Made by a program: the position numbers and the translations under genes. DNA of 64,000 bases from Trichoplax sp. H2. Its lineage: Eukaryota. Positions 9,710 to 54,039 of this stretch are shown here, piece after piece. Location: contig NOWV01000160.1 of NCBI GenBank assembly GCA_003344405.1, forward strand, positions 62,001 to 126,000, given 5' to 3'. The stretch's first letter is position 1. Every line of letters begins with the position of its first letter. A model generated the notes under the pieces. The model searched no databases. It was not told the DNA's origin and worked only from the letters and a program-made list of their open reading frames with translations.

Positions 9710-10762
9710 TTATTGATGAATTGGCGATTGAACTAAGCGTAAACTTAATCGTTGTAAATTCATCGATGAAGCTCTTTCATATCGATTCTTAGGAGGACTT
9801 CTAGTTTCTTCATGACCATAAATCCAAGATTTTAATCTATAAAAGAGAGCATCACGAATACTTTCGACGAAATAAGCATATAGTAATGGATTAATAGCTG
9901 GGTAAGCAAAAGCAATGTAACGGCTAAACTGCGCGAAATAGTACAATGGCAATGACATCAATTTTACTGAACGCAGTCTTACTATTAAGAATAGTAATAG
10001 ATAAGGCAACATCATACATAAAAATACTAATGTTAAAGTAGCCATTTGTATTGATGCATACATTGTTTTTCTTCTTATGATGCTGTACTGCACAGGAGAG
10101 ATTGAAGCATTTGTTTGATTGATTTTGCGCTTTCGCATATATATTACATAAAATATGTAGGCGTAAAATGTCACAATGACAGTAATTGGAAAGAAGATAC
10201 ACCCGAAAAATAGTAAATATAAAAAAATTTCTTCTGCGGTAGTATCGCTAGAGTATAGAATGCAATCACTTATTTGCAATGGGCGAAATGTCAAGACAGG
10301 TACTATAGCAACCAACAAGGAAGAGGTCCAAATCATTCCAATGGCGATAAGATAATGATGTTGACTTAAAGTAGTTTTATAAAGTACTGGCCAGTTGACA
10401 GCGATTAAACGATCAAAACATATTAAACACTGATGTAAATTGTAATTAAGTAAAAATGATGATCCAAGCACTGGCAACAATGAACAAATTAATCCCCATT
10501 TTCGATAGCCAACTATTGCAAATCGTGGTAAAACATAGATTCCGCCAAAGAGAATACCAATAACAAATGAACTACCGATGATAATAGTGGTTAAATTTCG
10601 AAATATTTTTGCTTTACTTATACCAAAGAGCAACATCGAATTGGTAATAATTGACAGAATACCGATGATAAACCATAGCTCTCTGCTATCAGGTGGATAA
10701 AGTAATAATGTTGGTCTAAAGCTGGATGCATTAGTTAAATTACTTACGTTATTAATATGCAT
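9710..10762 (-). CDS. Orphan rhodopsin-class (class A) GPCR, single coding exon, 350 aa
   Basis: Seven hydrophobic segments; TM1 TNS, Cys at the top of TM3, DRY variant FDRL, ECL2 Cys, TM5 FFP...Y, TM6 LPY, TM7 NPLLY; N-terminal N-glycosylation sequons (NVS, NLT, NAS). Confidence 0.95.
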   Translation of the reverse strand: MHINNVSNLTNASSFRPTLLLYPPDSRELWFIIGILSIITNSMLLFGISKAKIFRNLTTIIIGSSFVIGILFGGIYVLPRFAIVGYRKWGLICSLLPVLGSSFLLNYNLHQCLICFDRLIAVNWPVLYKTTLSQHHYLIAIGMIWTSSLLVAIVPVLTFRPLQISDCILYSSDTTAEEIFLYLLFFGCIFFPITVIVTFYAYIFYVIYMRKRKINQTNASISPVQYSIIRRKTMYASIQMATLTLVFLCMMLPYLLLFLIVRLRSVKLMSLPLYYFAQFSRYIAFAYPAINPLLYAYFVESIRDALFYRLKSWIYGHEETRSPPKNRYERASSMNLQRLSLRLVQSPIHQ

Positions 10763-28218: not shown

Positions 28219-29346
28219 CTAAAGCATTTCAATTTCTTGCTTTTCATTAGAAACTTGATCTTGATTTTGTTCAAATAGCTGATGACTCGAAGATGATTTC
28301 TTGACCTGACCATTAGAACGAAGTTTTGCTTGACTAGCTAAATCCATACTATTGGAACGTATAAAAGAAGATCGAGTGGAATAAGATCTTGAATCACGTT
28401 GATCTGAAGCAGGCAAGTTACAAATTTGCCTGAAGTAATTCGTTAATGCTTGATTTACGCTAGCTGTTATAAAGGCATAAAGGAGCGGATTTATAGCATG
28501 GTAGCTAAAAGCTAGATATTGAAAAGTTTCAAGAAGTGTTGTGGCTGTCTGGGAAGCGCTACCACTAAAAACAGCTATCGCTGAAACAAAAGTTAGTATC
28601 ATAAAAGGAAACCAACAAAGAGAATAAACGCCCGTCATCATAGCTACTTGTTTAGCTGCTTTTAAATTTTTCTGTAATGTCGAACGTGGTTGTCGGCTGC
28701 GCTTGTAATATAATTCTTGCCTTGATTTCGAATTTATAATAATAAATATTCTAATATAAGTTGCAAAAATGACAGCTAATGGTGCAAAGAATAACGATGC
28801 ATAAACGACGATCAAATAGATACGATAAATGAAAATTTCTCTTTGTGTAAAAACAACGTAGCAAACATCGCCATGATAGAAACCGTAAAAAATATTTAGG
28901 AAAAACCCGGATATAACAGAAATTATAACAATAATAGCAATAACGACGATAGCATAGCGTTTTCTAGCAACATTATTATAAGAGAATGGCAATGAAACAC
29001 GTAAAAATCGATCCAAACTGATGGCACATTGATGGAGATTAGAACATACAATTAAGCAAACCCCGGTGTAGGGTAGCATCGAGCATAAAAATGGTGAATG
29101 AGTCCAATACGGATAAATCCATCGAGGTAAAATATACAAGACAGCAAATAAAATTCCTGTGACAAACATACTAATCATCAGGCCATTGGAGACCGTTCTT
29201 AATCTCTTCTTCGTAGCAATAATATAAATAACGAGCGAATTAGTACCAACGGTGATAGCAACTATAATACTGTAAATTATGATTCGACGTAAAACTATTG
29301 GTAATGTCAGTGGACCAGTCGGTCTTGTTACATTCGTTGCATTCAT
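28219..29346 (-). CDS. Orphan rhodopsin-class (class A) GPCR, single coding exon, 375 aa; paralogue of 9710-10762
   Basis: 7 TM segments; TNS, CSMLP, SLDRF, FFAPL..Y, CWFPF, NPLLY; N-terminal sequons NAT/NVT; Ser-rich C-terminal tail. Confidence 0.95.
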   Translation of the reverse strand: MNATNVTRPTGPLTLPIVLRRIIIYSIIVAITVGTNSLVIYIIATKKRLRTVSNGLMISMFVTGILFAVLYILPRWIYPYWTHSPFLCSMLPYTGVCLIVCSNLHQCAISLDRFLRVSLPFSYNNVARKRYAIVVIAIIVIISVISGFFLNIFYGFYHGDVCYVVFTQREIFIYRIYLIVVYASLFFAPLAVIFATYIRIFIIINSKSRQELYYKRSRQPRSTLQKNLKAAKQVAMMTGVYSLCWFPFMILTFVSAIAVFSGSASQTATTLLETFQYLAFSYHAINPLLYAFITASVNQALTNYFRQICNLPASDQRDSRSYSTRSSFIRSNSMDLASQAKLRSNGQVKKSSSSHQLFEQNQDQVSNEKQEIEML

Positions 29347-32300: not shown

Positions 32301-33193
32301 GAATTATAAACAAGCTTGCATATTGCAGTTAGTAAAATTGTGGATATTACATTTTAGATTAAAGTCGAAGTATTAATAATTGTTTAATTAAAGATAATAA
32401 GAAATACCCAATTGCTACGAAGTTTTTTTGAAAAGCTACCATAACATAGCATTTATAAGAAAACTTGAGCAAGGATGCACTGACAACGGCTTTTCTACAA
32501 AATTTTTCGTGCTGTATGTATAAATCGGTCGATTTTGCAATACATTTAGCGTTCGAATTTATCTAGAGAAATGTAGTTTACTATAATCATTGATTATCTA
32601 ATTATCAAAAGTACAAGTCATACTTTACATAGATTTCGAAAAGGTAGAAATTACAGTAGGCTCATACCGTTAATTTTTCGAATAGCATTAACTATAGTCA
32701 GAATCATTTAGTTTGTCACATCAACAGCTAAGTCATCAAGTTGATTCATAAGACACTAAAACTAGTATGTCAAGAATTTTCATTTTACTGCAATTTCTAA
32801 CCCTAGTTCGTAGCAACTAGCAAATGATGATGATAATATTAAGCAATTACACGATTTTTCATGCTATATTAAAACACCTATCCAAAGGGTACTTACGATA
32901 CAAAGTAACTGATGCCAACGTTGTCACGACTGCAAGTTAAATTTAAAAAATTCTCCTCAATTTTCAGGCTACCAACGAGTAAAAACAAATAACAAATTGC
33001 CAGCGAACAATTCTATGAGTTATTCAAATTTAAGAAAAGCCGAAGTCTCCTCTCTTTTTTTCTCTATCGTATTTCCTTTTCATACCATTACCCTTATTAC
33101 ATCAATACTCTATATTTGTAAGATAAGTTAATAAAAACCACGGCAACAGTAAATATGTTTTAAAATAGAATCGCACGACATTAATTATCTCTA

Positions 33194-33317
33194 AAATGAT
33201 GAACATAACCAATAATAATCCTGAACGTGGAAATCAATTGAACATAACATAGAATATTGTAAAAATGGTGAAATAGCCAATAATAATCCCTAATATGGAA
33301 ATTAATTGAACATAACG
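33194..33317. repeat. Local ~55-bp imperfect duplication
   Basis: AAATGATGAACATAACCAATAATAATCC..TGGAAATCAATTGAACATAAC is repeated with substitutions ~68 bp downstream. Confidence 0.75.
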
Positions 33318-34302
33318 ACCTTAATAAAATTTGTTCCGTCAACTTGCTTTAATTTTTAAAGGATACAAAGAATTTGTGGTCGGTGTATTTATTTCTTATT
33401 CTCTATTCATTTGGGAAGCTACGTGATAGTGCTAGATGCTCTGGATGATAAGTACAATATTTTTGCAACAGCAACGGTAACTCTTACAAATCAAAAGGCT
33501 AAGAACCAACCCTAAAGAAATGGCGTAGCTGCTTAAATCCACATTAAGCCGAATATAATATTTTGGCGATAGTTGCATTTATAGGCATTTAATGTTGCAA
33601 TTTACTTTAATTCAACTTAGAATAAACTTTTCAATGTGTATATTGATCAATACCTGAAGCTAAGTTATCATACTAACTTCAATAGGTTACTACAATTTAA
33701 GCGGATCATGGATAAATCCAACAAACACATTTTGAAATAAGTAACTAGAATGAAATGATACCATGAAGAGTTATTCTTATCCTGAAGCCTAAATATTATA
33801 TTTTTTATTTTCTATAGACTTAGTGCAATAAAAAACATAATTTTTTTCACGTAAGCTTTATATTTAGCTATATTGATGCTTTTGATAGCATTAATAAATG
33901 AAGTAATAATGTAGTTTGCTAGTTCAGAACAAACCTTCACTTCAATTTCTTAGAAAATCAAAAATTATAGAAATCTAATAACTGGAGATGTGTCGAAAGT
34001 TTGAATTGATAATTGAAACTTAAGCATGTCTTACGTAATGAATAATCATTATAAATCGCTATTAAGATTATTGGCCACTAAGAGAATCGCATTTATTAGT
34101 AATATAAATTTTACTGCTAGGAGTCACTTGCTTCTCAGAAATCTTTTTAGCAGTTTAGTTTAGTGGTCTATTAGAAAATAATAGCTGCAGATATGAACAA
34201 TTATTCGGTTATAAGAAGAGATCTATACAGAAGTCAATTCTATGATTTCTTAGCGTTAGAGCCAGCAGTAAGAACGGATTAAGAATATTTATCCTAGACT
34301 TT

Positions 34303-34457
34303 GGTATACGACTATATGATACGACTACAGGTATACGACTATAGGTATACGACTATAGGTATACGACTATAGGTATACGACTATAGGCATACGGCTATAG
34401 GTATACGGCTATAGGTATACGACTATAGGTATACGACTGTAGGTATATGACTATAGG
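34303..34457. repeat. Minisatellite, 14-bp unit GGTATACGACTATA, ~11 copies
   Basis: Directly visible head-to-tail array with few variants (GGCATACGGCTATA, GGTATACGACTGTA, GGTATATGACTATA); no spacers. Confidence 0.95.
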
Positions 34458-36660
34458 CTATCATAACCTAGTCCAGTGTGTTTTTCGCGATATGATCAAT
34501 AGTATATAATCTCTTTATTTAAATCAAACTTAATTTAATTATCCTACTAGCATGTGTTAGTATATGCTTTAATTGACCTCATGAAGCCAATAGTAGAATT
34601 TTGGGAAATTAAAATTTCATAAGAAGGATATAGTATAAGACCAAAGTGATCATAATTGCAATTCATATTATGACTAATAACTAATTGTAAGGTTTTATTG
34701 TTTCTACTGCAATAATAGAACTTAACGATTTTATTTAGATTTGTCTCATTACCTTCTCTTCCTTAGTATGTTTTCGTAGGTTGAAAATCAAATCGCCAAG
34801 TCAATGTGTTCATAATGACCAAGATTTTTCTGCCTTGATATACGATAATAAACGATATATTTTAGAATATTGGGTTATGGCATCTTGAAGAAGTATATAG
34901 TAGGTACTTGCAAATGTTTCGGTACGTCATAAGATTTGAAATACAAGAGTAGAATTAGAAAGAATGATTCAAAATTTGTACTATGTCAAAGAATAGCACC
35001 TATCTCTTTTAGCTAATTATGTGTTATCAAGATAATTTTTTATTCAAGCTTTGCCAACATAGAAAACTAGGATGCTACAAAAATGGAGTTTTCTGAATTA
35101 ATTAAATTCTGTAATCATGCAATATGGTTTGTTGGCGATTCCATTAATCCTAGAGTATCAGCTCTTGGAATTTAAATCTATAATAATATAAATAGATGTT
35201 ATTAATCCAATGATTCCGTAAGTAAATCAGAAATAAAAAATTAAAATCAATCGAAAGATCTTCAAATACGTTCTTGTGTATTATTTCACACAATTTTCTA
35301 CGCCTACAGTACTTGTTCTTGCCAAGAGCCACCTCCCTCTACGGAGCCTAAAACAACTTATTTACCTATTGCGTTCTAGTTTGTAAACAGTGATTCCGTT
35401 TACAATCAACGTTATCTAGATCACAGCTGTCTTTCATTTAAGGTGCTGGGACCTACCGGTACCACTTTCAAAATGCCTTTATTCCAAAAATCTATTCTAT
35501 TATTATTGAGTATTCACAATTCCTACTCTTCTATCATTACATTCGATTGCATATACTTAATTGGACCAGCAATTGGCGTATGAGCTATCTCGATCTGAGC
35601 TACTATCATGTAGTACATGTATATGTTATACAATTTAATTTATATAATCCCTGGACTGGCACTACCATTATGTTACGGTACGAACTACCGTGAAGAAATA
35701 GCTATCTAAATTTGGTAAATATAATATAGTGATATTATATTACAACTAGTTATTTACTATAGGAATTACTCTAATTATAAATGTGTTACAGTAAATTTAA
35801 TGCTGTGCTGTAATGTGCACTGAAATGATTCTGTGAATGGACATATTGTAGTCCGACTGTGAAAAACTAGTTATCTCACCTAAATATTTTTATAAGATGA
35901 CTTGTGAATGTTAGCTGCTGTAGAAGGGTATATAAGCCCGTCAGATAGTTGAATAAAGCAGTTCTCAATTGAATTGTTGTTTTAACGTAGAATCAAAGGC
36001 GTCTAAATTCTTGTGAGGTAGTTAAGGGATACTGAATTCCGGAAGACTATAGTAATTTAGAGATTTGTTTTACGTTATCCTTGTCACGAAGTTGGTTTGT
36101 GACGCATTAGCATAAACGAATTCTTACAGTTAGTCGACCAAGGTTTGAACTCAAATTAATGAAAAATCTAAGCAGATATATTTTTTGTTAGTTTTTATTT
36201 AAAAGCAGAAATATAAGCGGGTAAGGGCAATTTCTTTACCTTTTCAAGACGTTTACACATATATATTATCATACTGCAGGCATTAACATCAAAGTACTGT
36301 ACACGTAAATATACGTATGAATATTTTAATCATGTGTTACAGTTTACAAGAACTGAACGACAGTCTGCAGAAAGGGTAATATTGGGCAAGGTTAGCCAAT
36401 AAATTTAGCAAAGTAGGCTGATTATGGTGAGCAATAAATAAATCTTCGCAAACTAAACTACTACCAAATCCCGTCGGCTATTACAGTGCAAACTTGAGAA
36501 TCTCTAGTTGTACCAAACAGACATATAAGAAACTAATTAGAATTTTATAGATAATTCTTATCTCTTTTATTAAAGTATTGTAATGTAGCAAAATTTGGGT
36601 GCTAAATGCTAGATTATTATCTTAATCAGCAAAAACCATTATATTCTCCACTCCTTCAAA

Positions 36661-38313
36661 TTACTTTTGGAGCTTAATATGTTTCGCAGCGTCAACAACA
36701 CCTGTACCAGAAGCATTTATAGAAAAAATAGCATTAGATGCAACTGAATGATTTGTCCTCGTGTTATTTTTGTCTATCTTTCGCGAGCAACTACCTTCTG
36801 TGATTGGTTTCCAAATACCTAATTGTGTTTTGTTTAGCTTATATAACTTGTTGATAACATCTTTTTTTTCCAATACTGAATGACCTCTTTTTTCATTTTT
36901 GCTTCCTAGTCCAGTTTGATAATTGAGTACGCCGCCTTCAGTCACTCTATAAAATATGTCATACCAATCTTGAATGGATGATTTTTTATATCCAAGCCTT
37001 GTGACGTGAAGATTAAACTTATCAGCATAAGGCAGATTGTATTCTGAATTATTAAGATACTCTTCAATAGTCATATTATTTGTCAGTCTGCTCTTAAGAT
37101 CATCGACATGGATATGTTGTACCCAGTCTCCAGTGGTACTAGTTGCCAAGGTTTCCTTATATATGGCCTGACCATTACGAAAAACTTGGTCATGTCCTAG
37201 TGAACAATATATAGAATTAATGGACGAATATCGGTCACTACCATCTGGTGTTATTTCCTTGACAGCGACTGCTGTTTCACTGCCTGGATTAATATAAACA
37301 GAAGCTAGTTTTGTATTAGCTCGGTACTCGAATTTGTCAGGATAATGTAACTGTAAATATTCAATGATCACTTCCATGATATCAGGATAAAAAAAGCCAT
37401 CACCAGGAATGAAATATGCGTGCACCGGTTGATTTTCTATATCAAATAAAGTTCTATCTTTCAAGAACGCATCATCAACAAAGTAAGACTCAATGCCTAG
37501 CATTTTCCATGAATTTAAACCATGTTTTAACCTTGGAAGATCCTCTGGAAAACCAAAATATAGACGTCCCTTCCGCTCCATAATAGATTTATTCAAGCTA
37601 GCCCTTGTCAAATAATCGATGTAAGAAAAATTCTCCAACGACAGTTTTTGCCCTTCAACCACTAATTTACTCCTTTGTGTAACATCGAATCCGGCCATAC
37701 CTTTCTGTTGAAGAAACTCCAAAAAAAAATTTGTGTAAGAAATCAGTTTTGAGGTACTAGGATTGAGCATCGGAATGGAAAACGACTGGTAATTAGATTT
37801 TTCAGGATCTCTAGAATCGATAAAATTGAACGAGAGAGCTTTGATTAAATCTGATAATGTATATTCATCGTATTGTGTGGGATGTTGATGTGCCTGAAGA
37901 CCACTGCGATCCATTATTGATAAATGACTATCTGAAGAGAAAACGACTTTCATTTCCGAGCGGTTATGCAACAATTCGAATGCTTTTAATAAAGCAGATA
38001 GCCCTCCAGCCGTATATGCTACGGTTTGATTAGTCGAATCGGTAAATTCTGTAGCTGTGCTATTAACAATTTGTACAGCACTTTGCTTATGCCATTTAGT
38101 AGAAAATTTCACTTTTGTAGCTTCTCTTAACTCGTCCAATAGCCTAGCATCACCAAACGCTTGAATTTTTGACAGCTTAAAATCGGAAACAGATATCTTT
38201 TCAAGAATACTCTTATAGCATTTTATTTTTTCTGAAGACCATCCTAAAAAAGGAGTCGTTTTTTTGCTCTTAAATAACTGATTAACAGGTTTCGCCACTT
38301 TCATAGTTGCCAT
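36661..38313 (-). CDS. Intronless FAD-dependent oxidoreductase-like protein of the DAO/DadA (D-amino acid oxidase/dehydrogenase) fold, 550 aa
   Basis: A 1653-bp uninterrupted ORF in AT-rich DNA. Family-like motifs occur in order: VAYTAGGLSALLKAFELL..KVVF (Rossmann beta-alpha-beta), GRLYFG, FIPGDGFFYP, YRANTKLASV, SIYCSLGH, GSCSRKID and C-terminal IFSINASGTGVVDAA. The ORF is secure; the family call was made by eye. Confidence 0.75.
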   Translation of the reverse strand: MATMKVAKPVNQLFKSKKTTPFLGWSSEKIKCYKSILEKISVSDFKLSKIQAFGDARLLDELREATKVKFSTKWHKQSAVQIVNSTATEFTDSTNQTVAYTAGGLSALLKAFELLHNRSEMKVVFSSDSHLSIMDRSGLQAHQHPTQYDEYTLSDLIKALSFNFIDSRDPEKSNYQSFSIPMLNPSTSKLISYTNFFLEFLQQKGMAGFDVTQRSKLVVEGQKLSLENFSYIDYLTRASLNKSIMERKGRLYFGFPEDLPRLKHGLNSWKMLGIESYFVDDAFLKDRTLFDIENQPVHAYFIPGDGFFYPDIMEVIIEYLQLHYPDKFEYRANTKLASVYINPGSETAVAVKEITPDGSDRYSSINSIYCSLGHDQVFRNGQAIYKETLATSTTGDWVQHIHVDDLKSRLTNNMTIEEYLNNSEYNLPYADKFNLHVTRLGYKKSSIQDWYDIFYRVTEGGVLNYQTGLGSKNEKRGHSVLEKKDVINKLYKLNKTQLGIWKPITEGSCSRKIDKNNTRTNHSVASNAIFSINASGTGVVDAAKHIKLQK

Positions 38314-39448
38314 TCTTGTTCACAATAAAGCCACTACCAACTTAGCGAACGAATAATAACCAATACAATTTTATGTAATTATATTTTCAAGTGATATTAG
38401 AAATCGCTAGAAATTACTAAACTAAAGGAGACAGACCCTAAACCGATGGATTGTTAGTTACCAACATACCAAATGATGGTTAATGCCAGAGAGAGCTAGG
38501 TTAAGTGAAGAAAGATACGGATACCGCTATAATCTGGTACGCAGACTATAAAGATTCTTTAATAAATGGAATATCTTATAAGTGCTTTAAGACCATGGTG
38601 GGCGTTGCATCTCTCGTAATCATTTTTGTTCACAAATTAGATATTTCGTAAAAGATACCACTTGTTGAATATTAATTAATGTAAATTTTCAGAATGAACG
38701 AGTATATATATATACATAAATGTCTTGGTAAAACTTATAGACGTTGATTTCCTTAACAAATATTTACTATGTGATAATGGCGTCATTTTTTCAAGTGATC
38801 AAATAGTACTCTCTCGTGATCAGGATATTGGTCAGGCCATAGGCGAGTTGAATGTAAAATTGTACCCATTATTCCATTAAAGTATAAATTTTAGTACACG
38901 TACATGTCTAAGCTTCTATGTACCTTACACAGTATAGTATGTTAAGTTCATACTTTGCTTATATTATTGTTATTGCTAATGTACTTTATGTTTGTTGCAT
39001 CATAGGTCATCGTATAACTACACTACTGTGTGCTAATAAAGAACATAGATTCTTCGTATTGGTCGAAAATCTACAAACAAAGCCTTTGAATTCTTATTCA
39101 GTATCAGTAAGTGATAGATATTGGACGAGGATTACAATTATTAATGTGTGCATATGTCAATGGGAGAGAAGTTTATCTTAGACAGCATCTATACCGTTAT
39201 ACAGTATAACGTGAAACGTATCGAAATCTTAGCTTACTTAGGCGGAAGTTCAGTGACTGAATCTGTAACTTCATATATAAGTTCATAAGTATAATACGGA
39301 TATAATATGAGAATTACGATAATGTATTTGTACCATATGTATGTAAGTCACATATAACAAACATTGTATTTAAACTATTACATAATAAAAAAGATCATCA
39401 ATTATATCTCACTACCTTTGCATAAATAGCAATCTCTGAAGTCCATTC

Positions 39449-40173
39449 TTAAAGGGGTGAAGCGCAATTTTTCTTTTTTCGTTTCTTATTTTATTTATGC
39501 AATTGTCGAGAATGTGATTACTTTATCCTATGCATAGCTTTTGAAAAAAGAAAGAAACAAATTTAATTCAGAGCTATGATTAGTGAAGTTATAAATATGG
39601 CTGGAATGATGTCTGAGTAGAAACAAACATCCCAGATGTTAATAAAATATTATCAAAGCAATATCTCATATGGTTAAAATTCGATGAAACAATAAATTGT
39701 AGAATACCCTTATCCTATATTAGATAAGGTATTGTGTATGGTATTGTAGTAAAACGACCAAGGGCCAATCGTTACTTAATTAATTGTTAAGATATTAGAC
39801 TGTCTTTTTAACTTCGAATTGATATGATAATAAGCATATTCTTTGCGATGAAAAATTGAATACGATAAAAATATTCCGAAAGCTAATCCGTAAATTAATT
39901 GATCTCAATATCGAGCAGGACCTTCTTAATAAGTGATAGTTTTACAAAAACTTCTTGACTAAAAAATTGTAAAACTGCGTTAGACCTTGTTGATATGTTA
40001 CGAAATTTTAAATTAGAGCTATAAAATCGGTTGATAATTCAAACAACACATTGTTTTTCCAAATTTTTACTATTCAATATTATTTTGTTCATGAATAACA
40101 GATGGATAATTAGAAATACCTGCTAACTAATAATGTTTAAGTGAGGATTCAAAAATTATAGTCGCCTCTTTAG
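39449..40173. mobile_element. Possible degenerate non-autonomous DNA transposon (TTAA-site, Kolobok/piggyBac-like)
   Basis: The left end TTAAAGGGGTGAAGCGCAATTTTT and the reverse-complemented right end CTAAAGAGGCGACTATAATTTTT form an imperfect TIR pair; no coding capacity. Confidence 0.3.
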
Positions 40174-42821
40174 AGTATTTTATTCTTTATTATAGCTCCG
40201 ATTCATGATAAGATGCTACGGACATCTTATCTCTTGTACAATTTTTAATACTTTTCACGATATTAAGAGTTACATTACATTATTATTCATTCATTTTATA
40301 GCAATGTTACTGATTTAGCCTCGTCATGTCTTTCAAAAATTTTATAGATTTCTGCCAGTATTGCTTATTATTTGAGAAAGATATTATAAATTCCCCAAAT
40401 TGGTAAAATTATCGAACTAATTTGGGAACAAGTAAATTTCAGAATCTTAAAGTTTTTATCTACTTTACAGTAATTGGGTATCTATAACCCAATAGACAGC
40501 CTCTATGTTTATGACGTAAATCAAATACTTATTACTAAACTTTTACTGTTAAGCATCATAACAGTTTTATCACAGGTCTACTTAAACTCTAAAACGGATC
40601 TTAATCAGACAAGGTTTTTAAACTATTTAAACATATGGCCTCGTAGCTGCAACAGAAATTTCGGTTGCAGTTAGACGTAGAAAAGATTTTCGACTGTATT
40701 TAATCAGATAAAAGTATTGCTAAAATCAATTTATTTGGCAACTTTATTGAACTTAATAAAGCACGGTTATTAATAATTAATTCATCAAGATTGCAAACTC
40801 TCACTTTTAGCAAAGAGATAAACTCGATGTAGTGCTTCATGTTTTCATATTTTTAAGTAATTGCAAGCCAAGTTCTCATTTGAAGGTTTAAAAACAATTT
40901 TATCTTAGGTCAGCTCAAGCATTTTATAAAATGGAAACATGTTCAGAAGGTAATCATTACAATTTAAAGTTCATTGCCCGTTATCTACGAACAGAATTAG
41001 TATCGTACTACTTAAAAGCTAATGTGCCGGATATAACTAAACCATTAAAGACATTTTATTGTCTTGCAGGTTCTTTTGAACACTGTCTGATTTACAAATG
41101 TTTTCTGAAAGTAAAATTTTGTTATAAATCGTATCTAGCAAATTATGAGTTCGGAATAATAATAAACGGTAGCAAAGTTTGCCGGTTAATGCAGGCGCAG
41201 ATATAAGGAAAACTTTTTATTATTGTAGTGGATTAAACAACAAATTTCTTCCTTCATATTCTAGAATAAAAATTTTAATCACTATGCACTCATATTACTT
41301 TCCTAATATAGATTGCACAGGTAGAAAATGTTTCTTTCGATCATTTATAGCAGCCTAATTAAGTTCAAGATTGAGCAACAATTTTCAGTGTAGCAAATAT
41401 GCAGCTAGCTTTAAAAACTACTTGTGAAAAAAGAAATAAATCATGTTTAGCAGACAGATTAAAAGGACGACGATATCGTGTGAAAATAAACTAGTTAGCA
41501 AACTAGACCAGATGGTCAACATGTTGCATTAAAATAAAAGACAAGTAGATTCAGCTTTAAACAACAATTTATTAATGCCAAATAATAGCTAGGTTTCAGT
41601 TTTACAAAATGGTAACCAGATGTTATTGACGTTAAATTCATTAAAATTTTAGCTATCCAATCAATCCATAATGAGTCCATTGCAACAGTTGCTAATCAAT
41701 TATTTATTCTTCTTGATGATGAACAAATTATTATTTTACTTGTAGGTAGAACATTGGTTACAAGTAACAATATCATTCATTGTATAACATACAATAATAA
41801 TTTTGTTGGATATACTGCAAGTACCCACCCAAAGTTGATATAGGAATCAGTTTAAAAATGACCGTATTTAATTAATTAATATATAAAATGCTGTCTATCC
41901 ATAAGTTTGGCAGTTGATTTGATCGTGTCTAAAGTAAATAAATTACTTCATGCAAGTTCAAGTTGATTTTTAAAGCAAATTCAAAACATGTGCGTCCAAA
42001 TGATACTGCTAATTTGATTAATAACAATAGCAGAGAACAATATTACTGTTTTTTATTGTCTATCAAGATAACCATTCAAATTAATCCAGATAATTAAGGT
42101 AATTAACAATCTAATCGGATGAGTTCGATTAGCAATCCAATCCTTAGTATCAGCACGTTTTCTGACCTCTTTGATATACCGTAGCACGCGGCTTAATCAT
42201 ACAAATAACCACAGCTATCCAATTCATCTGCGCCACTTCATCAACATTACGATATTCAAATCCTTTAATAACTAGAAAGAATTTGAATAACTAGATTCTT
42301 AGTACCGGTTATCAAAATTAAGTATTAAACTTCTCATACTGATCAATCATTTTAGAGATTCTCATTGATATGATTATATAGTTTATTTAGATAAAAATCT
42401 TAAACTTGAAATCAAATCTTCTATATCATGACTGAGAATGAATTCATTAATGGTGACTATTTCACCTACCTTTCGTGTCAGTAAAATCATTACAAAGCTA
42501 CAAAATATAAATCAAACAAATTATGTAAGTAAATCAATCAATCATTGGCAACAATGCAATCTATTATGACTTCTTTTGGAGCTATTGAGATAATCTGCAT
42601 AATAGCATTCCAACATGGAATTAATGCTTTTGTTTATGACATAATACGTTGTAAGATCTTATTGTGTTTATCAAGTACATATAAAAGTGAAGTTTGTCGT
42701 CTTCGCTCAAAATATTACCTATTCAATTGGAGTAAAGTTAGCCAATATTACAGGCACCTTGCTGAGCTTATTCGATTAAAAGATCTACTTGTTACTCATC
42801 TTTATAGCACAAAATTGAAAC

Positions 42822-45800: not shown

Positions 45801-48800
45801 ATATAACATAAAACAAGTAATCAATAAAATGATCATGCCGCCATTCTATCTACAAGTCAATAAAACTAACTAAAATACAATCAACAAGCATAAGCCAACC
45901 GAATTTTGCAAATTGGTTTTTATTATTTAAAAAAGAGTTTATTCGACTCAAACACAATATTCCGTCAGATTATTTCATCACCTTATTTATAAGGCTATGT
46001 ACAACGTCACCGTTAGGCAATTCACAAGTAATTATAAAGCGTCAATATTATTAAATGTATCCAAGATCTTTGACAATCTCTTAAGACTTTTCATTAGCGT
46101 AAGAAAGCCTTTACTCAAACAAATATGACGTAACTAAAATAAATACAACAAACATTGATGTACTGACTCATTCTGAGTCTATTAGCGTTCATTGATGATG
46201 TTCAGTAAAGTAATTTTATCATGCAACAAAGCTTTACTAATAAATGACTATGAAAGCATAATGATTTCTATCAGATATAATTAACAATTGAGCCTTTTCT
46301 CTATAACCTTTAGAGGCCCAAGTTACAATGGTAACTTATGATAAAGCCATTTATGCTACTCGTGGCCATTCATATTACTTTACGTGTATTCCATATAATA
46401 ATTATCGAGTCTTACATTGGATGATCAATAAAACATTGATCAACGTTGAATACTCTAACAAGCATTACGATTTGGAAGAAGGAAACACACGTTTGTGGAT
46501 TAACAATGTTAACTGGAACGATGAAGGAAGTTATACTTGCGTGGCCATTAATAGTCAAGGCAATCGATATGCACGAGATAATGGTGTATTACAAATTTCA
46601 GGTATAGCTGACATATCATACTTTTAATAAGGTTTTTTCAAGTTGATTATTGTTGGAGAAGAAGTACAGTAGAATTTGATGTTGCTAATTAGAAATTTAT
46701 GACTAAAATTTACCGTAAAAAAGGGATAACGGAAAGATTTCATTTCCTCTATTTCTTGTAGTGCCGATGAGAACAGCTGCTCCTCCAAATCAAATTATTC
46801 CGATCGATATGCCCTATCAAATCAAATGTGATGTACGCGGTAAACCTAAGCCAAAAGTGACCTGGTATAAGGATGGAAAGATGATTGATTTCAAAACCCT
46901 CGGTCGATTTCGGTTACAACAAAATGGTTCACTGTATATTAACCCAGTCAAACTGGATGATGAAGGAAAGTATGAATGTCGAGGCAATCAACGAGGAAAC
47001 ATGATTCGAAAAATGATCAAAGTCACTGTTGGAGGTATTTGCAAACTATGTTTGCTATTATTAAATTCTAATTTAAATTAAATGAATGACATATCTGTAT
47101 ATAAGTATAACGAATTATTCATTGAAATTATGTAGAGTATCCTTATTTCGTCATGGATCAAAACAACGTTCAACAACCAAGTAATGTTACAGCAGAAGAA
47201 AATAGTACCGCTAAGTTTACTTGCTTAGCCAAGGGAAAGCCAAAGCCAAAAGTTGAATGGTTGGATCAGTACAATGTGCCCTTATCTGGAGAACATTACG
47301 ACTTAACTGAACCAAGTATTTTAGTAATTAAAGCTGCAAATCGAAAAAAACATCATTCATTTATTTGTCGGGCTAGTAATGTTATTGCAAGCGTTGAAAC
47401 GAAAGTATTTTTGCAAGTCTATGGTAAGATGGCAATTAACTGCGCTGATACTATTGTTTAAATTAAAAATTTCAATACTTTTAGACTATTGGTCTATCCA
47501 ATTTTGCTCAAATAAATTTAGTACATATTTTTAAAATATAATGCAGAAACTCCTAAAATTATATCTCTAAGTGGTCCAACTAATACTAGCAAACGAGAAG
47601 TCGCTGTATTTACATGCCAAGCAACTGGATATCCTATGCCTAAAATTGAATGGTATAAAGACAATAAGCCCATCCAAACTGTGAGCATGAATGAAAAAAT
47701 CGAAATCAATGTACATGCAACCCTTCTCTATTTCTATTTCGCTTATTCTTACTAATTTCTCTTGTTAATTTGCCATTCCAGAGTTCTAATGTAGTTACAA
47801 CTGGAGCCTTTACTGATTACGCATTCCAAAGTTCATTATATCTGTTCTCAGTCGAATTATATGATGCTGGCACCTATGCCTGTTTGGCTAGTAATGGTTA
47901 TTCACCTGATGAAGAGAGACACTTAGAATTTATAACTAACGGTAAGTAAAGTTCTATATTTCTAGGATAAGTTAATGCAGTTATTCTGCAAATGAATATT
48001 GCATTAAGAAACCTTAACGTAAATAATTGCTGAATCAATAATTTATGGTATCTTTTCCAAAATTATCTTACCAACTTTTCAAAACAAATTTATGAACAAT
48101 TATTCGCGACAGAACCTGCTACTTTTCTTAAATCATCAAACGAGAAAACCGGTCTCCAAAAAGTGGTTTTTGATGTACAATCGATCAATTGTACCGCTCA
48201 AGGAAGTCCATTACCTCAAATTATTTGGATGAAGGATGGATCACCATTGAGTGAAACAGAACAAATTAAAGTTCAAGTCAATCTATTATCAACGGTATCT
48301 ATTAAGTCAACTTTAAATTTTTTATCTTTACAACCAGCTGATAGTGGATTATATAGCTGTCAAGCTTTAAACGAGTTTAACGATGCCCAACCGCCAACTC
48401 AATCATTCAAATTAGCAGTTATTGGTAAGTGACCGATTTGCCACATTATAAAAATAGATAGGAATAAGATTTAAATTCATTCGCATTGTCTTGACTATAA
48501 TAAGTCAAGATTGCCCTCTAAATGAACTCGCTTACAAGAGAAAGTGATTTCAAATTTATGTACTAAACTTATGTATCTCCTGTAGACTTTCCATCAAGTC
48601 CAAGAGATGCTAAGCTAACTAATCGTTCCTATCACGAATTACATCTTAGTTGGTCACCACCAATTAGCAACGGTGGTGATCCTAACATCATCTATACCAT
48701 AAAGTATAGGCCTAAAATTGGAAGTTTCCCATGGTCAGTCTTTACTGTCATAGACACCAAATGCCAAATTCACAATTTGCAAAATGGGACAGAATATGAA

Positions 48801-49512
48801 ATCCAAATTTATACGGTTAATAAAGCTGGCATTAGTTTCCGCTCGCCTGTCTTGGTCTTTAAGACAAAAGAAGGTAAGGTTTTATGGTATGTGCCAATAA
48901 AGCAAAGTTAGATTTGCTAATATTCATCAATTTTTTCTATCATAGTTTCCACTGCCTCTACTTATGCCTATACTACAGTCATCACTACAGTCATCTCTTC
49001 AGCTTCAACAAAATGTAAGTTCCCATATTACAAAAACAACTGTGATACAAAATCAAGACGAAATAGGAAATAACATTTACTGACTGTAATCTACTTTTAC
49101 TCGTATAGCTATCTCTACACAATTTACACCAAAGCATAGTGTTACTAGAGCAGAAATACGAGCAACCCATTCATCGATAGGTAAAAGTCAGAACTTTTAG
49201 ATTGTTCCTTATAATAAAAATTATTTTATATGGTTATATTAAAATTAAATATCTAAATAAAACACTGTTTACATATTTTAACGATAGAGAGTACAACAGA
49301 AAGTAGCTCTTCAAGCCGAAGTGAGTTTGTCAACAATATTTATATGAAATATTTTATTTACTGCCTTGAAAAAGACATTAATCGTAGTGCTACCGCCCAT
49401 TTTCACTTCTATTTCTGATTACTTTTTAATTTGGTCATAATTTTTAGATGCGTTCTCATCGTTTATATTGGTAATTGGCTTGATAATATCAACTCTAATC
49501 AACATTTGTTAG
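42822..49512 (+). CDS. Immunoglobulin-superfamily cell-surface protein: signal peptide, 5 Ig, 1 FN3, Ser/Thr stalk, probable GPI signal (~692 aa, 12 exons)
   Basis: Phase-consistent GT-AG model: 42822-42918, 46314-46601, 46762-47034, 47136-47423, 47547-47680 (alternative donor 47710), 47782-47941, 48113-48424, 48586-48873, 48946-49014, 49109-49180, 49288-49320, 49448-49512. Ig motifs C..G.P.P...W and DxGxYxC; FN3 LSWSPP..NGG and LQNGTEYEI; signal IFLLFLHSTEA/QV; C-terminus AFSSFILVIGLIISTLINIC*. Exon 1 is the least certain. Confidence 0.9.
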
Positions 49513-53058: not shown

Positions 53059-54039
53059 ATGGCTGTGTTAACTGAACCAAATTCTACTTTGTCAATTAGC
53101 AATAGCAATGGATTCAACTTTTTAGTTTGGGAGAGATTAAGCTATACCGATCCAAGATATATTATTACGGTAACTTGTTTGGCATTCATCAGTATTATAG
53201 CAGTTTATGGTAACTTACGCAATCTAACATTGATCCATCAGTGTCGAAGACTACATGATGTAAACGTTTTATGTATCGCTAATTTAGCCTTTATCGATTT
53301 TCTTACTGGGATCATAGCCATACCTCTTGCAATCACTGTATTAACCCTAAATCCATTAGAATATCCCATTTGCCAATTTCAAGGATGCGTTACATTACTC
53401 TTATACATGACTTCGTTAGTAGCTACATCCCTAATAAGTGTCGATCGATGTAATGCCGTTGTGAATCCTTTTGGTTACGATAGTCAGATCACAGCAAGTA
53501 AATGTGTCTTTATCGTAATTTTGACTTGGCTTATACCCTTCATTATCGCTATATTACCTCTACTAGGTCTCGAGCGATATGGTCTTGGTAAGATTTATCT
53601 CGAGCTGCTTTGTGGTATCTCATTTGATTATCTACATGAAAATTTCATAATTTCATGGGTAATGACGGCATTTGTGATTATCAACATATTAGTAATCTTT
53701 TTTAGCTACCTAATTATTTTTACTGTGGCATATCGAAAAACAGTACAAGATTTAACCAGAAACAGCAAACTATCAAGATCAATTCGAACCACCAGTTTAA
53801 TCGTCGGAACAAATTTTATTTTCTGGCTTCCGTACATTATCTTTCTGGGACAAAAATTTAGCTATAATATTTCTATCCCTCCATTGCCCAAATTTTCAGA
53901 CTATTTTACAGTCATTGCAATCATTATGGTAATGAGCAATCCTGCCATCAATCCAATTATATATGCAACAACCAATGCTCATCTACGAAAGCACTTTATC
54001 AGAACCATTCCGGTACCACAAGCTACTGATCAAAACTAA
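53059..54039 (+). CDS. Class A GPCR, single exon, 326 aa, opsin/melatonin-receptor-related (placopsin-like)
   Basis: 7 TM; YGN, NLAFIDF (D2.50 present), CQFQG, SVDRC, LPLLG..RY...CGISF, FFSY, FWLPY, SNPAINPIIY. The GPCR call is secure; the subfamily is tentative. Confidence 0.92.
   Translation: MAVLTEPNSTLSISNSNGFNFLVWERLSYTDPRYIITVTCLAFISIIAVYGNLRNLTLIHQCRRLHDVNVLCIANLAFIDFLTGIIAIPLAITVLTLNPLEYPICQFQGCVTLLLYMTSLVATSLISVDRCNAVVNPFGYDSQITASKCVFIVILTWLIPFIIAILPLLGLERYGLGKIYLELLCGISFDYLHENFIISWVMTAFVIINILVIFFSYLIIFTVAYRKTVQDLTRNSKLSRSIRTTSLIVGTNFIFWLPYIIFLGQKFSYNISIPPLPKFSDYFTVIAIIMVMSNPAINPIIYATTNAHLRKHFIRTIPVPQATDQN

What the first reader, a model, noticed from the sequence alone, without database searches (positions are those of the whole stretch)
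36661..38313. Intronless DadA/DAO-fold flavoenzyme in an animal genome: candidate horizontally acquired D-amino-acid-metabolising gene
Seen: a 550-codon ORF with no introns, embedded in host-type intergenic DNA between a GPCR and a 12-exon Ig gene, so it does not look like a stray bacterial contig. Established: the DAO family (Pfam PF01266) has an N-terminal Rossmann motif, a GxL strand, a PxDGxxxP motif, a VVxAxG strand, a conserved Arg near the end and a terminal Gly-rich helix start; analogues of all occur here in order. The ~80-aa segment between the FAD loop and GRLYFG (LIKAL..FFLEFL..KLSLE) recalls the insertion of bacterial D-amino acid dehydrogenase DadA rather than animal peroxisomal DAO, and there is no C-terminal SKL-type PTS1. 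Inference: a divergent, possibly bacterial-, symbiont- or virus-derived enzyme acting on D-amino acids or glycine. This is the most unexplained gene in the window.
Basis: partly seen in the sequence, partly recalled or inferred. Interest (0 to 1): 0.8.

Follow-up and report, generated by a model that had tools for sequence, protein, structure and literature searches.

The report
Rare glycine-oxidase-like flavoenzyme gene in Trichoplax
This is a genuine, expressed, intronless Trichoplax gene for a very divergent member of the D-amino-acid-oxidase fold; its bacterial relatives sit next to malate synthase in chlamydiae that lack isocitrate lyase, so it probably makes glyoxylate, and it does not look like a recent bacterial or viral import.

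Summary
The 550-codon ORF at 36661-38313 (-) is real. It equals Trichoplax adhaerens TRIADDRAFT_59532 (uncharacterized). It lies among host genes, has host-like GC, is bridged at flank depth by DNA contigs of two other studies, and is covered without splice joints by RNA-library contigs. No Pfam, NCBIfam or PDB sequence model matches it, and hhalign against true DAO proteins gives 1.1 %. Two AlphaFold models nevertheless match the two-domain DAO fold, best glycine oxidase (Z 24.4 and 26.3). GxGxxG is replaced by xGGxx[A/S] in 31 of 31 members. The family is tiny (26 representatives in 1.84 billion proteins): Trichoplax, Abeoforma, Rhynchopus, Percolomonas and Chlamydiota. The Trichoplax protein groups with eukaryotes, not inside the chlamydial clade, and no viral relative was found, so recent bacterial or viral origin is not supported. 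New lead: at 10 of 13 chlamydial loci the gene lies beside, or one gene from, malate synthase, and none of those 10 genomes has isocitrate lyase. All 33 sampled malate-synthase genomes without the family do have it. Best reading: a flavoenzyme that forms glyoxylate from glycine or a related substrate. Its role in Trichoplax is inferred only.

The parts
36661..38313 (-). Complete intronless CDS, 550 codons plus stop; identical over 550/550 residues to T. adhaerens TRIADDRAFT_59532 (B3S5W6)
38314..38550 (-). Probable 5' untranslated region: covered by RNA-library contigs, which stop by 38550 while DNA contigs continue
   Evidence: table 8 (X19 records 5-7, X20 record 16); contigs do not give strand or exact ends
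36277..36660 (-). Probable 3' untranslated region, covered by RNA-library contigs; an AATAAA lies at 36566-36571 on the minus strand
   Evidence: X19 records 3-4, X20 record 13
38239..38313 (-). Residues 1-25: poorly predicted basic N-terminus (5 K/R and 0 D/E in the first 20 residues); possible mitochondrial presequence (inference)
37927..38022 (-). Residues 98-129: predicted beta1-turn-helix-beta2 dinucleotide-binding unit. G103 and G104 are invariant, position 102 is never Gly, position 107 is A or S, and D128 is present in 29 of 31 members after beta2
37870..37905 (-). Residues 137-148: family signature loop SGxQxHxHP[TS][QE][YW]; Q140, H142 and H144 are invariant in 31 of 31
37579..37866 (-). 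Residues 150-245: family-specific, largely helical insertion (helices 153-161, 187-207, 213-240). It accounts for much of the extra length over glycine oxidase
37384..37410 (-).
37192..37203 (-). Residues 371-374: SLGH (S371 and G373 invariant, H374 nearly invariant in A1 and invariant in A5)
37006..37014 (-). Residues 434-436: NLH (N434 and H436 invariant)
36763..36795 (-). Residues 507-517: GSCSRK....N, with G507, C509, R511 and N517 invariant in 31 of 31. R511 sits where DAO-fold enzymes carry the carboxylate-binding Arg (positional inference)
36700..36711 (-). Residues 535-538: SGTG, the C-terminal Gly-rich motif (S 28/31, G536 30/31, G538 30/31)

Best explanation
The ORF is a native, transcribed, single-exon gene of the placozoan Trichoplax (TRIADDRAFT_59532). 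It encodes a member of a very small protein family with no Pfam or NCBIfam model. The family has the two-domain fold of the DAO / glycine oxidase / sarcosine oxidase flavoenzymes. It has diverged so far that sequence profiles no longer detect the relationship, and its dinucleotide-binding turn reads xGGxx[A/S] instead of GxGxxG. I propose that the family is a flavin-dependent oxidase or dehydrogenase that oxidises the C-N bond of glycine or an N-substituted glycine and releases glyoxylate; glycolate oxidation is less likely. In environmental chlamydiae this glyoxylate would feed the divergently transcribed malate synthase, giving a route to malate that does not need isocitrate lyase. In Trichoplax the enzyme, possibly mitochondrial, would do the same chemistry on glycine-type substrates. 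Shown here: the gene, its host context, cover in RNA libraries, the fold, the family's distribution, and the link with malate synthase and with absence of ICL in chlamydiae. Inferred: flavin binding, the substrate, glyoxylate as product, localisation, and that the function carries over from the chlamydial clade (about 25 % identity) to the eukaryotic one. The gene's history is a patchy eukaryote-plus-chlamydiae distribution of unknown direction. It is not a recent transfer into the animal.
For: Gene and host context. The ORF is confirmed. The flanking GPCR is 99 % identical to TRIADDRAFT_59533. The protein is 550/550 identical to TRIADDRAFT_59532, which lies on a 2.4-Mb scaffold. The stretch is held by 20 runs of 7 studies. 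DNA contigs bridge the gene and its flanks at flank depth. RNA-library contigs cover 36277-38550 without joints and give no cover at 34204-35407 or 38719-40223. GC is 0.356 and GC3 0.294, against 0.33-0.35 and 0.27-0.31 in the three GPCR ORFs. Of 8 listed variants in the ORF, 5 are synonymous, 3 missense and none a stop.

Fold. The model of P0001 has pLDDT 83.5 and pTM 0.86. Foldseek's best match is monomeric sarcosine oxidase, E 1.4e-12. VIA's best match is glycine oxidase 4ysh_B, Z 24.4, rmsd 3.4, 327 residues aligned. A second model, of chlamydial member L004, has pLDDT 91.8. Searched against 48,161 PDB representatives, its top tier at Z 25.1-26.3 is glycine oxidase, CmiS2, L-proline dehydrogenase beta, iminodiacetate oxidase, sarcosine oxidase beta and ThiO. 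GlpO scores 22.5, GlpD 19.4, L2HGDH 18.7 and MQO 16.6. All 10 ESM Atlas rows shown are PF01266 clusters, scoring 0.94-0.95.

Conserved polar residues. Q140, H142, H144, R250, D305, S371, H374, N434, H436, R456, C509, R511 and N517 are invariant or nearly so, which argues for an active enzyme.

Chlamydial context. There are 13 distinct family loci in 12 genomes: the 12 loci plus G028. Malate synthase is the head-to-head neighbour at 8 of them: L002, L003, L004, L005, L006, L010, L011 and L012 (Pfam; overlap). It is one gene away at 2 more, L009 and L008. ICL was found in 0 of those 10 genomes.

Phylum sample. In the 401-genome sample, 37 genomes have a strong malate synthase match and 34 of these also have ICL. 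The three without ICL (G005, G363, G393) are exactly the three in the sample whose malate synthase lies next to the family gene. All 33 malate-synthase genomes that lack the family have ICL (Fisher p 5e-4, not corrected for phylogeny).

Chemistry. B. subtilis glycine oxidase converts glycine, sarcosine and N-ethylglycine to glyoxylate, and malate synthase condenses glyoxylate with acetyl-CoA (passages of PMC3662618).
Against: No sequence model supports the assignment. Pfam gives 0 hits at E<=10. Among 22 members, DAO, GIDA and Thi4 each hit 1 member at E about 0.1. NCBIfam gives only two far-sub-threshold chance-level hits for P0001 and none for the other three proteins scanned. PDB sequence and profile searches give only noise. 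hhalign against 8 true DAO proteins gives 1.1 % probability.

The first Gly of GxGxxG is replaced by a hydrophobic residue in 31 of 31 members, so flavin binding is not assured.

The functional link comes only from one chlamydial subclade. The other chlamydial subclade is not linked to malate synthase: L001 lies in a genome with no malate synthase, L007 is unlinked, and G028 has a normal ICL + malate synthase pair elsewhere. The eukaryotic clade is separated by a long branch of 1.7.

I could not test whether Trichoplax has a malate synthase. No whole genome is held, and none is in the window.

The genomes are MAGs, so absence of ICL is not proof. The counts are not phylogenetically independent. 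RNA evidence comes from contigs of two runs of one study, so strand and level are unknown.
Confidence: 0.5

Rival explanations
1. One reading: the gene was acquired horizontally and fairly recently by the animal from a bacterium, symbiont or virus, as a DadA-like D-amino-acid dehydrogenase.
For: The family is extremely patchy: 26 representatives among 1.84 billion proteins. It includes Chlamydiota, which are intracellular bacteria. No other named animal homologue was found. The gene has no introns.
Against: The nearest relatives are eukaryotic: Rhynchopus, Abeoforma and the unnamed P0002, at 46-52 % identity. Their clade has 100/100 support and lies outside the 21-row chlamydial clade (100/99). 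GC and GC3 are host-like. No viral relative was found. Neighbouring host GPCRs are also intronless, so intron lack is not diagnostic here. A Trichoplax + P0002 + Abeoforma clade is not rejected (AU p 0.11). Structurally the glycine-oxidase group ranks above D-arginine dehydrogenase.
Confidence: 0.1
2. The family oxidises a 2-hydroxy acid rather than an amine. One version is glycolate to glyoxylate, which still feeds malate synthase. The other is L-malate to oxaloacetate, an MQO-like step downstream of malate synthase, with glyoxylate coming from the host.
For: The malate synthase linkage fits either direction. No PF06039 MQO is present in the 5 of 5 genomes tested. MQO, GlpO, GlpD and L2HGDH share the fold. 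The invariant histidines in the loop after beta2 recall the catalytic His loop of GlpO/GlpD-type enzymes; this is recalled, not tested.
Against: MQO is a much poorer structural match (Z 16.6) than glycine oxidase (Z 26.3), and the hydroxy-acid and alcohol enzymes all rank below the amine oxidases. All 5 genomes tested already have an Ldh/Mdh-family enzyme. The MQO version leaves the missing glyoxylate source unexplained in exactly the genomes that lack ICL.
Confidence: 0.2
3. The protein keeps the fold but no longer binds flavin. It would then be a pseudoenzyme, a binding protein, or an enzyme with other chemistry, for example one using the conserved His/Cys residues for a metal.
For: No canonical GxGxxG occurs in 31 of 31 members. 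No sequence model of any flavoenzyme family matches. Four invariant His, one Cys and one Asp could form a metal site.
Against: G103-G104 at the beta1-helix turn, D128 after beta2 and the C-terminal SGxG motif are conserved where DAO-fold enzymes contact FAD; this is a positional inference. The whole two-domain architecture is kept at Z 24-26.
Confidence: 0.1
4. The ORF is contamination or a chimeric join with a symbiont contig.
For: Chlamydial homologues exist. Contigs break at a high-copy repeat 0.35 kb beyond the 3' end of the ORF.
Against: Contigs from two independent studies bridge the ORF and more than 1 kb of upstream flank at the same depth as host DNA. 20 runs of 7 studies hold the stretch. 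The protein is annotated on a 2.4-Mb T. adhaerens scaffold next to TRIADDRAFT_59533. The gene is only 27 % identical to the Parachlamydia protein.
Confidence: 0.01

Closest known systems
Glycine oxidase (ThiO / GoxB, EC 1.4.3.19) and its structural neighbours CmiS2 and iminodiacetate oxidase IdaA
   Same: Best structural matches for both models: Z 24.4 / 26.3 for 4ysh, 24.0 / 25.7 for CmiS2, 22.8 / 25.4 for IdaA. Same two-domain architecture and same order of motifs, including an Arg near the C-terminus and a terminal SGxG. Glycine oxidase makes glyoxylate from glycine and N-alkylglycines (PMC3662618 passages). That CmiS2 and IdaA also release glyoxylate is recalled, not checked here.
   Different: Identity is only 10-14 %. 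No HMM or profile-profile signal. About 180 extra residues: a 90-aa N-terminal extension and a helical insertion. xGGxx[A/S] replaces GxGxxG. A signature Q-x-H-x-H-P loop and a G-x-C-x-R motif are specific to this family. The context is malate synthase, not thiamine genes; a true ThiO next to a ThiG-like ORF exists separately in G001 (both names are my reading of the sequences, from no family scan).
Pfam PF01266 (DAO) family: sarcosine oxidase, D-amino-acid oxidase, D-arginine dehydrogenase, DadA
   Same: Same fold. The Atlas feature search points to PF01266 clusters.
   Different: Fails the family's own HMM. Animal DAAO and DASPO are poorer structural matches (Z 20.2-22.2) and carry a PTS1, which is absent here. 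No evidence of a specific relationship to DadA.
Isocitrate lyase (functional analogue only)
   Same: It is the usual supplier of glyoxylate to malate synthase and usually lies beside it: 34 of 37 malate-synthase genomes in the sample have ICL. The new family occupies that genomic position in genomes that lack ICL.
   Different: Unrelated fold and chemistry: a lyase of the PEP-mutase superfamily versus a flavoenzyme fold. The carbon source would be glycine or a similar compound, not isocitrate.
Malate:quinone oxidoreductase (PF06039)
   Same: DAO-type fold, similar length of about 500 aa, and acts on the product of malate synthase.
   Different: Weak structural match (Z 16.6) and no HMM match. 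The genomes tested already have an Ldh/Mdh-family enzyme.

Membership tests
Pfam PF01266 DAO (FAD-dependent oxidoreductase) | Match to the family HMM above the gathering score | tested here: not met
   0 Pfam hits for P0001 at E<=10. 1 of 22 members hits DAO, at E 0.12. The PF01266 scan of G001 lists nothing at the family locus, which is C1:838187-839674.
Pfam PF01266 DAO (FAD-dependent oxidoreductase) | Profile-profile similarity to bona fide members | tested here: not met
   hhalign of A1 (22 sequences) against A3 (8 true DAO proteins from the same chlamydial genomes): probability 1.1 %, E 0.047. The reference profile is small, so this is a weak negative.
DAO / GR2 structural superfamily | Two-domain fold: FAD-binding Rossmann-type domain plus substrate-binding sheet domain, aligned over most of the length | tested here: met
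   Foldseek E 1.4e-12, TM to target 0.60. VIA Z 24.4, 327 of 368 target residues aligned. Second model Z 26.3 against all 48,161 PDB representatives.
DAO / GR2 structural superfamily | N-terminal GxGxxG dinucleotide-binding motif | tested here: not met
   Positions 102-107 read [VMFALCI]-G-G-[LI]-x-[AS] in 31 of 31 aligned members; the first Gly is never present.
DAO / GR2 structural superfamily | Acidic residue at the end of beta2 (binds the ADP ribose) | tested here: met
   D128 in 29 of 31 members, directly after predicted strand 122-126. Equivalence is by position, not by a bound ligand.
DAO / GR2 structural superfamily | Bound FAD and redox activity | not testable with these tools
   Needs purified protein.
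Glycine oxidase (ThiO/GoxB) | Oxidises glycine or N-alkylglycine to glyoxylate | not testable with these tools
   Indirect support only: best structural neighbour and malate synthase linkage with no ICL.
Glycine oxidase (ThiO/GoxB) | Sequence membership (NCBIfam or Pfam equivalog) | tested here: not met
   No NCBIfam hit near any cut-off for P0001, L004, P0012 or P0050.
DadA-type D-amino-acid dehydrogenase | Specific similarity to DadA or D-arginine dehydrogenase above other DAO-fold enzymes | tested here: inconclusive
   D-arginine dehydrogenase scores Z 21.5-23.1, below the glycine-oxidase tier. No DadA structure appeared among the rows shown.
Animal peroxisomal DAAO / DASPO | C-terminal PTS1 (SKL-like) | tested here: not met
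   The C-terminus is KLQK.
Malate:quinone oxidoreductase PF06039 | HMM match or close structural match | tested here: not met
   No Pfam hit. Z 16.6, against 26.3 for glycine oxidase.
Horizontally acquired bacterial gene in an animal | The animal sequence nests within a bacterial clade | tested here: not met
   It sits in a 4-row eukaryote-type clade (100/100), separate from the chlamydial clade (100/99). The tree is unrooted, with a midpoint root for drawing only.
Horizontally acquired bacterial gene in an animal | Physically integrated in host DNA | tested here: met

The most novel reading that the evidence does not exclude
A previously unrecognised flavoenzyme family supplies glyoxylate to malate synthase from glycine or a related small amine or acid. 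This would give environmental chlamydiae an isocitrate-lyase-independent route to malate. The same family survives in a handful of distant eukaryotes, including one animal lineage, Placozoa. There it may catabolise glycine, and it represents either an ancient eukaryotic gene lost almost everywhere or part of a eukaryote-chlamydia exchange network.
Probability: 0.35. Interest if true: 0.65.

Novelty: new variant of a known kind. Interest (0 to 1): 0.5.

Why it matters
The work puts a testable function on a protein family that no Pfam or NCBIfam model covers. In the genomes I examined, malate synthase without isocitrate lyase occurs exactly where this gene sits beside it, so one enzyme assay could define a new entry into the glyoxylate/malate node in intracellular bacteria. 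For animal biology, Trichoplax keeps an enzyme that no other named animal in the searched collections has. Its nearest relatives are protists, which is a useful marker for gene loss versus transfer at the base of animals. The finding also shows that a DAO-fold enzyme can lose the GxGxxG signature while keeping the fold. That matters for annotation pipelines that rely on the motif.

Tried and rejected
1. Sequence-model assignment led nowhere: Pfam, NCBIfam, PDB phmmer and profile search (the only hits are three chains of one protein, D339L, at E 0.13-0.68, taken as noise), and hhalign against true DAO proteins.

2. The search for related loci with the full alignment A1 failed because no stretch was conserved enough. 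I repeated it with the chlamydial subgroup A2.

3. Scans with the eukaryote-type alignment A4 found no relative in viral contigs (65 pattern matches, none confirmed) or in metagenome contigs (133 pattern matches, none confirmed).

The deep unnamed branches (P0009, P0010, P0013, P0022, P0011, P0007, P0008) therefore remain without an organism name. P0006 is from EukProt but its species is not given.

5. No whole genome is held for the window, so I could not test malate synthase or ICL in Trichoplax. The window itself has no malate-synthase signal and no second copy of the gene.

6. Other neighbours of the chlamydial genes (aminopeptidase M17, semialdehyde dehydrogenase, patatin, HEAT, HipA, rhodanese, a C1q/collagen-like protein and others) are not conserved and were set aside.

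7. The four weak partial matches in the phylum scan (G251, G312, G347, G357) are a separate distant branch. I fetched three of them (G357, G312, G251). They have no Pfam hit above threshold (one sub-threshold HODM_asu-like hit at E 0.0056). Two of the three (L027, L028) lie between GT9 and GT2 glycosyltransferase genes. They do not bridge to DAO.

8. The single 'ICL' hit in G001 is a PEP-mutase/PrpB-type protein (151 bits to PEP_mutase against 47 to ICL) next to a citrate-synthase-like ORF. It was not counted as ICL.

9. Model coordinates are not exposed to scripts, so I could not test 3D clustering of the invariant His, Cys and Asp residues.

10. Literature. No paper in the searchable library mentions TRIADDRAFT_59532, B3S5W6 or XP_002115515, nor F8L238, WP_013925552, CCB87361 or KIA76958. 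Searches on chlamydiae + malate synthase + ICL (listing only), Trichoplax + HGT + oxidoreductase, Trichoplax + malate synthase and Trichoplax + glyoxylate cycle gave nothing on this family. PMC5169069 (one passage read) only says Trichoplax is a poor candidate for its HGT pipeline.

11. Earlier findings of this scan: nothing by place, sequence or words.

12. No tandem repeat was found in the high-copy element downstream. Rfam and tRNA scans of the window were empty.
Full report
**1. The observation**

A 550-codon ORF runs from 38313 down to 36661 on the minus strand. In DNA of 30.7 % GC an open frame this long has a chance of about 4e-20 by my arithmetic, so it is not a chance ORF.

The surroundings are animal. 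Three intronless rhodopsin-family GPCR ORFs lie at 9710-10762(-), 28219-29346(-) and 53059-54039(+). I-set Ig and FN3 exons lie at 46307-48908(+). The GPCR at 28219-29346 is 99 % identical to Trichoplax adhaerens TRIADDRAFT_59533.

The ORF's own 90 % cluster contains TRIADDRAFT_59532 (XP_002115515.1, B3S5W6_TRIAD), an 'uncharacterized protein' on a 2.4-Mb scaffold. That model is identical over all 550 residues and then runs on for 33 more.

**2. It is a native, transcribed gene**

The stretch is held by 20 public runs of 7 studies. I laid two runs on record as RNA and two DNA runs from other studies on window 33000-42000.

- DNA contigs X5 (36105-39495) and X8 (36075-39437) bridge the ORF and both flanks at depth 30-34. 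The surrounding DNA has depth 23-42.
- RNA-library contigs cover 36277-38550 (X19) and 36476-38491 (X20). They give no cover at 34204-35407 or 38719-40223. No joints were reported.

This fits an unspliced transcript with UTRs of a few hundred bases. The caveats are that contigs show neither strand nor level, and both RNA runs come from one study.

GC (0.356) and GC3 (0.294) match the three neighbouring GPCR ORFs (0.33-0.35 and 0.27-0.31). Of the 8 listed variants inside the ORF, 5 are synonymous, 3 are missense and none is a stop. The window holds only one copy. Contamination or a chimeric join is therefore excluded for practical purposes.

**3. What the protein is**

No sequence model recognises it.
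- Pfam: 0 hits at E<=10.
- NCBIfam: only two chance-level hits far below cut-off.
- PDB by phmmer: 0 hits. PDB by family profile: only noise.
- Scanning 22 family members one by one: DAO, GIDA and Thi4 each hit 1 of 22 at E about 0.1.
- hhalign between the family alignment and 8 bona fide DAO proteins from the same chlamydial genomes: 1.1 % probability.

Structure prediction is nevertheless clear. The AlphaFold2 model has pLDDT 83.5 and pTM 0.86.
- Foldseek returns at least 500 DAO-superfamily chains, the best being monomeric sarcosine oxidase at E 1.4e-12.
- VIA-align gives Z 24.4 (rmsd 3.4 Å, 327 residues) to glycine oxidase over model residues 92-548.
- A second model, of a chlamydial member (pLDDT 91.8), was searched against all 48,161 PDB representatives without Foldseek. 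The same top tier came out at Z 25.1-26.3: glycine oxidase, CmiS2, L-proline dehydrogenase beta, iminodiacetate oxidase, sarcosine oxidase beta and ThiO.
- D-arginine dehydrogenase and MSOX score about 23, GlpO 22.5, DAAO about 21.7, GlpD 19.4, L2HGDH 18.7 and MQO 16.6.
- All 10 ESM Atlas feature-search rows shown are PF01266 clusters, at 0.94-0.95.

The family departs from the classical pattern. The beta1-turn-helix reads [VMFALCI]-G-G-[LI]-x-[AS] in 31 of 31 members, never GxGxxG. There is an N-terminal extension of about 90 residues and a helical insertion at about residues 150-245.

Conserved features that fit a working dinucleotide-dependent enzyme are:
- D128-G129 after beta2;
- the signature loop SGxQxHxHP (Q140, H142, H144 in 31 of 31);
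- R250, D305-G306, S371-x-G373-H374, N434-x-H436 and R456;
- G507-x-C509-x-R511 and N517;
- the C-terminal S-G-x-G.

That these residues line the flavin and substrate site is a positional inference.

**4. Who else has it**

An exhaustive HMMER pass over 1.84 billion representatives found 26 proteins at E<=1e-3, 21 at E<=1e-10 and 6 at E<=1e-30. Named members are:
- Rhynchopus euleeides (diplonemid) and Abeoforma whisleri (ichthyosporean);
- Percolomonas cosmopolitus (Heterolobosea);
- Parachlamydia acanthamoebae.

A scan of GTDB species genomes gave 12 loci. By title, 7 are Chlamydiae or Chlamydiales MAGs, 1 is Verrucomicrobia and 4 are 'uncultured bacterium'. In an even sample of 401 genomes of that phylum, only 5 have a strong full-length match.

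The maximum-likelihood tree has 33 rows, built under LG+C20+F+G4. I left out the split L011 copy, fragments under 310 aa and P0050. It shows:
- (Trichoplax, P0002) at 99/93;
- this pair joined to (Rhynchopus, Abeoforma) at 100/100, on a stem of 1.7;
- a second clade with one EukProt row and two unnamed rows (P0006-P0008) at 100/99;
- a chlamydial clade of 21 rows at 100/99, with an inner subclade of 10 rows at 100/100.

The tree is unrooted. An AU test does not reject Trichoplax + P0002 + Abeoforma as one clade (p 0.11). No viral or JGI-metagenome relative of the eukaryote-type group was found.

The distribution is thus truly patchy, but the animal gene's kin are eukaryotic. Nothing indicates a recent bacterial or viral donor.

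**5. A functional lead from the chlamydial relatives**

I examined 13 distinct family loci in 12 genomes. I checked that G363 is the genome of L002, G393 that of L005, and G408:C17 the contig of L008.

- At 8 loci the head-to-head neighbour is malate synthase, with -33 to 226 bp between ATG-based start codons: L002, L003, L004, L005, L006, L010, L011 and L012.
- At 2 loci malate synthase is one gene away. In L009 a Zn-ADH lies between; in L008 a 1684-aa PA-domain ORF does.
- At 3 loci the gene is unlinked. L001 lies in a genome with no malate synthase. L007 is unlinked, and its genome's malate synthase lies beside the second copy, L011. G028 is Parachlamydia-like and has an ICL + malate synthase pair on another contig.

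Other neighbours are not conserved. The loci linked to malate synthase that are in the tree (9 of the 10; L011 was left out) all fall in the 100/100 subclade.

None of the 10 genomes with the linked arrangement has an isocitrate lyase match. The one hit in G001 is a PrpB-type PEP-mutase protein.

In the phylum sample, 37 genomes have a strong malate synthase match and 37 a strong ICL match (one genome, G010, was not scored).
- 34 genomes have both, often side by side.
- The three malate-synthase genomes without ICL are exactly G005, G363 and G393, the three in the sample whose malate synthase sits next to the family gene.
- All 33 malate-synthase genomes that lack the family have ICL.
- Fisher p is 5e-4 within the malate-synthase genomes, not corrected for shared ancestry. 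These are MAGs, so absence is not proof.

MQO is absent from 5 of 5 genomes tested, and an Ldh/Mdh-family enzyme is present in 5 of 5.

The simplest reading is that the family takes the place of ICL as the source of glyoxylate for malate synthase. Glycine oxidase is the best structural neighbour, and it converts glycine, sarcosine and N-ethylglycine to glyoxylate (PMC3662618, passages read). I therefore propose a glycine-type, C-N-oxidising, glyoxylate-forming flavoenzyme.

The rivals are a glycolate-oxidising variant, or an MQO-like step downstream of malate synthase. The structural ranking and the unexplained glyoxylate source count against them, but they are not excluded.

**6. What this means for the Trichoplax gene**

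The eukaryotic clade keeps every family-invariant residue, so the same type of chemistry is likely. It is only about 25 % identical to the chlamydial proteins, however, and I could not test whether Trichoplax has malate synthase.

The first 20 residues carry 5 K/R and no D/E and are poorly predicted. That fits a mitochondrial presequence, which is an inference. The C-terminus KLQK is not a PTS1.

The reference model's extra 33 C-terminal residues are not supported by any joint in the RNA contigs.

**7. Comparison with what is known, and novelty**

The protein works like, and is folded like, glycine or sarcosine oxidases. It is not a member of PF01266 by that family's own test, lacks GxGxxG, and belongs to no curated family.

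I found no mention of the Trichoplax or Parachlamydia accessions in the searchable literature, and no paper describing this pairing with malate synthase (listings, plus passages of one paper). Supplementary tables could not be read.

I rate it a new variant of a known kind: a new, very small family within a well-known fold, with a specific and testable metabolic prediction. The headline of the original finding, an HGT-derived D-amino-acid enzyme in an animal, is not what the evidence shows.

**8. Verdict**

- Observation: confirmed.
- Interpretation: partly supported.
- Confidence that this is a DAO-fold protein encoded by a native placozoan gene: above 0.9.
- Confidence that the family forms glyoxylate for malate synthase in chlamydiae: about 0.6.
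- Confidence that the Trichoplax enzyme does glycine-type oxidation: about 0.4-0.45.
- Confidence in recent bacterial or viral origin: about 0.1.
- Interest: 0.5.

Noticed in passing
window 35408-36310: A high-copy element starts about 0.35 kb beyond the 3' end of the ORF. Summed contig depth is 5,000-36,000 in the DNA runs against about 30 for the flanks, and it is also present in the RNA libraries. All contigs break there, with loose ends at about 35671-35678, 36044-36046 and 36103. It is not a tandem array (0 rows from TRF), and Rfam has no match in the window.
   Followed up: partly
window 36661-38313 versus protein P0048: The reference T. adhaerens model TRIADDRAFT_59532 is 583 aa: identical over 550 residues, then 33 more past this ORF's stop codon. 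That implies a predicted intron that skips the stop. The RNA-library contigs show no joint, so the 550-aa single-exon form looks more likely.
   Followed up: partly
window 56109-56795 (-): A 228-aa ORF with no Pfam hit at E<=0.01.
   Followed up: no
L011 5962-7405 and 4771-5943 (genome G002): G002 carries two copies of the family gene. The copy beside malate synthase (L011) is split into two overlapping ORFs (5962-6636 and 6566-7405), and its malate synthase ORF is short (390 aa against about 500-540 elsewhere). The pair may be decaying, or the assembly may contain errors.
   Followed up: no
L026 1348-2802(-), L027 1051-2394(+), L028 1221-2447(+): A distant sister branch of the family (408-484 aa, E 1e-16 to 1e-25 to the chlamydial profile) with no Pfam hit above threshold. 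In two of the three loci fetched (L027, L028) it lies between a GT9 heptosyltransferase gene and a GT2 glycosyltransferase gene, which suggests a different role related to the cell envelope.
   Followed up: partly
L003 1248-1997 (-): A chlamydial-MAG ORF of 249 aa with collagen-repeat, C1q and BclA_C hits, a eukaryote-like or exosporium-like domain combination, lies about 0.7 kb beyond the 3' end of malate synthase.
   Followed up: no
L008 710-5764 (-): A 1684-aa ORF with a PA domain is inserted between malate synthase and the family gene in one chlamydial MAG.
   Followed up: no
window 9710-10762, 28219-29346, 53059-54039: Three intronless rhodopsin-family GPCR ORFs lie within 64 kb. The middle one has relatives of 65-67 % identity on short ENA and Logan contigs of unnamed origin (P0046, P0047).
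   Followed up: partly
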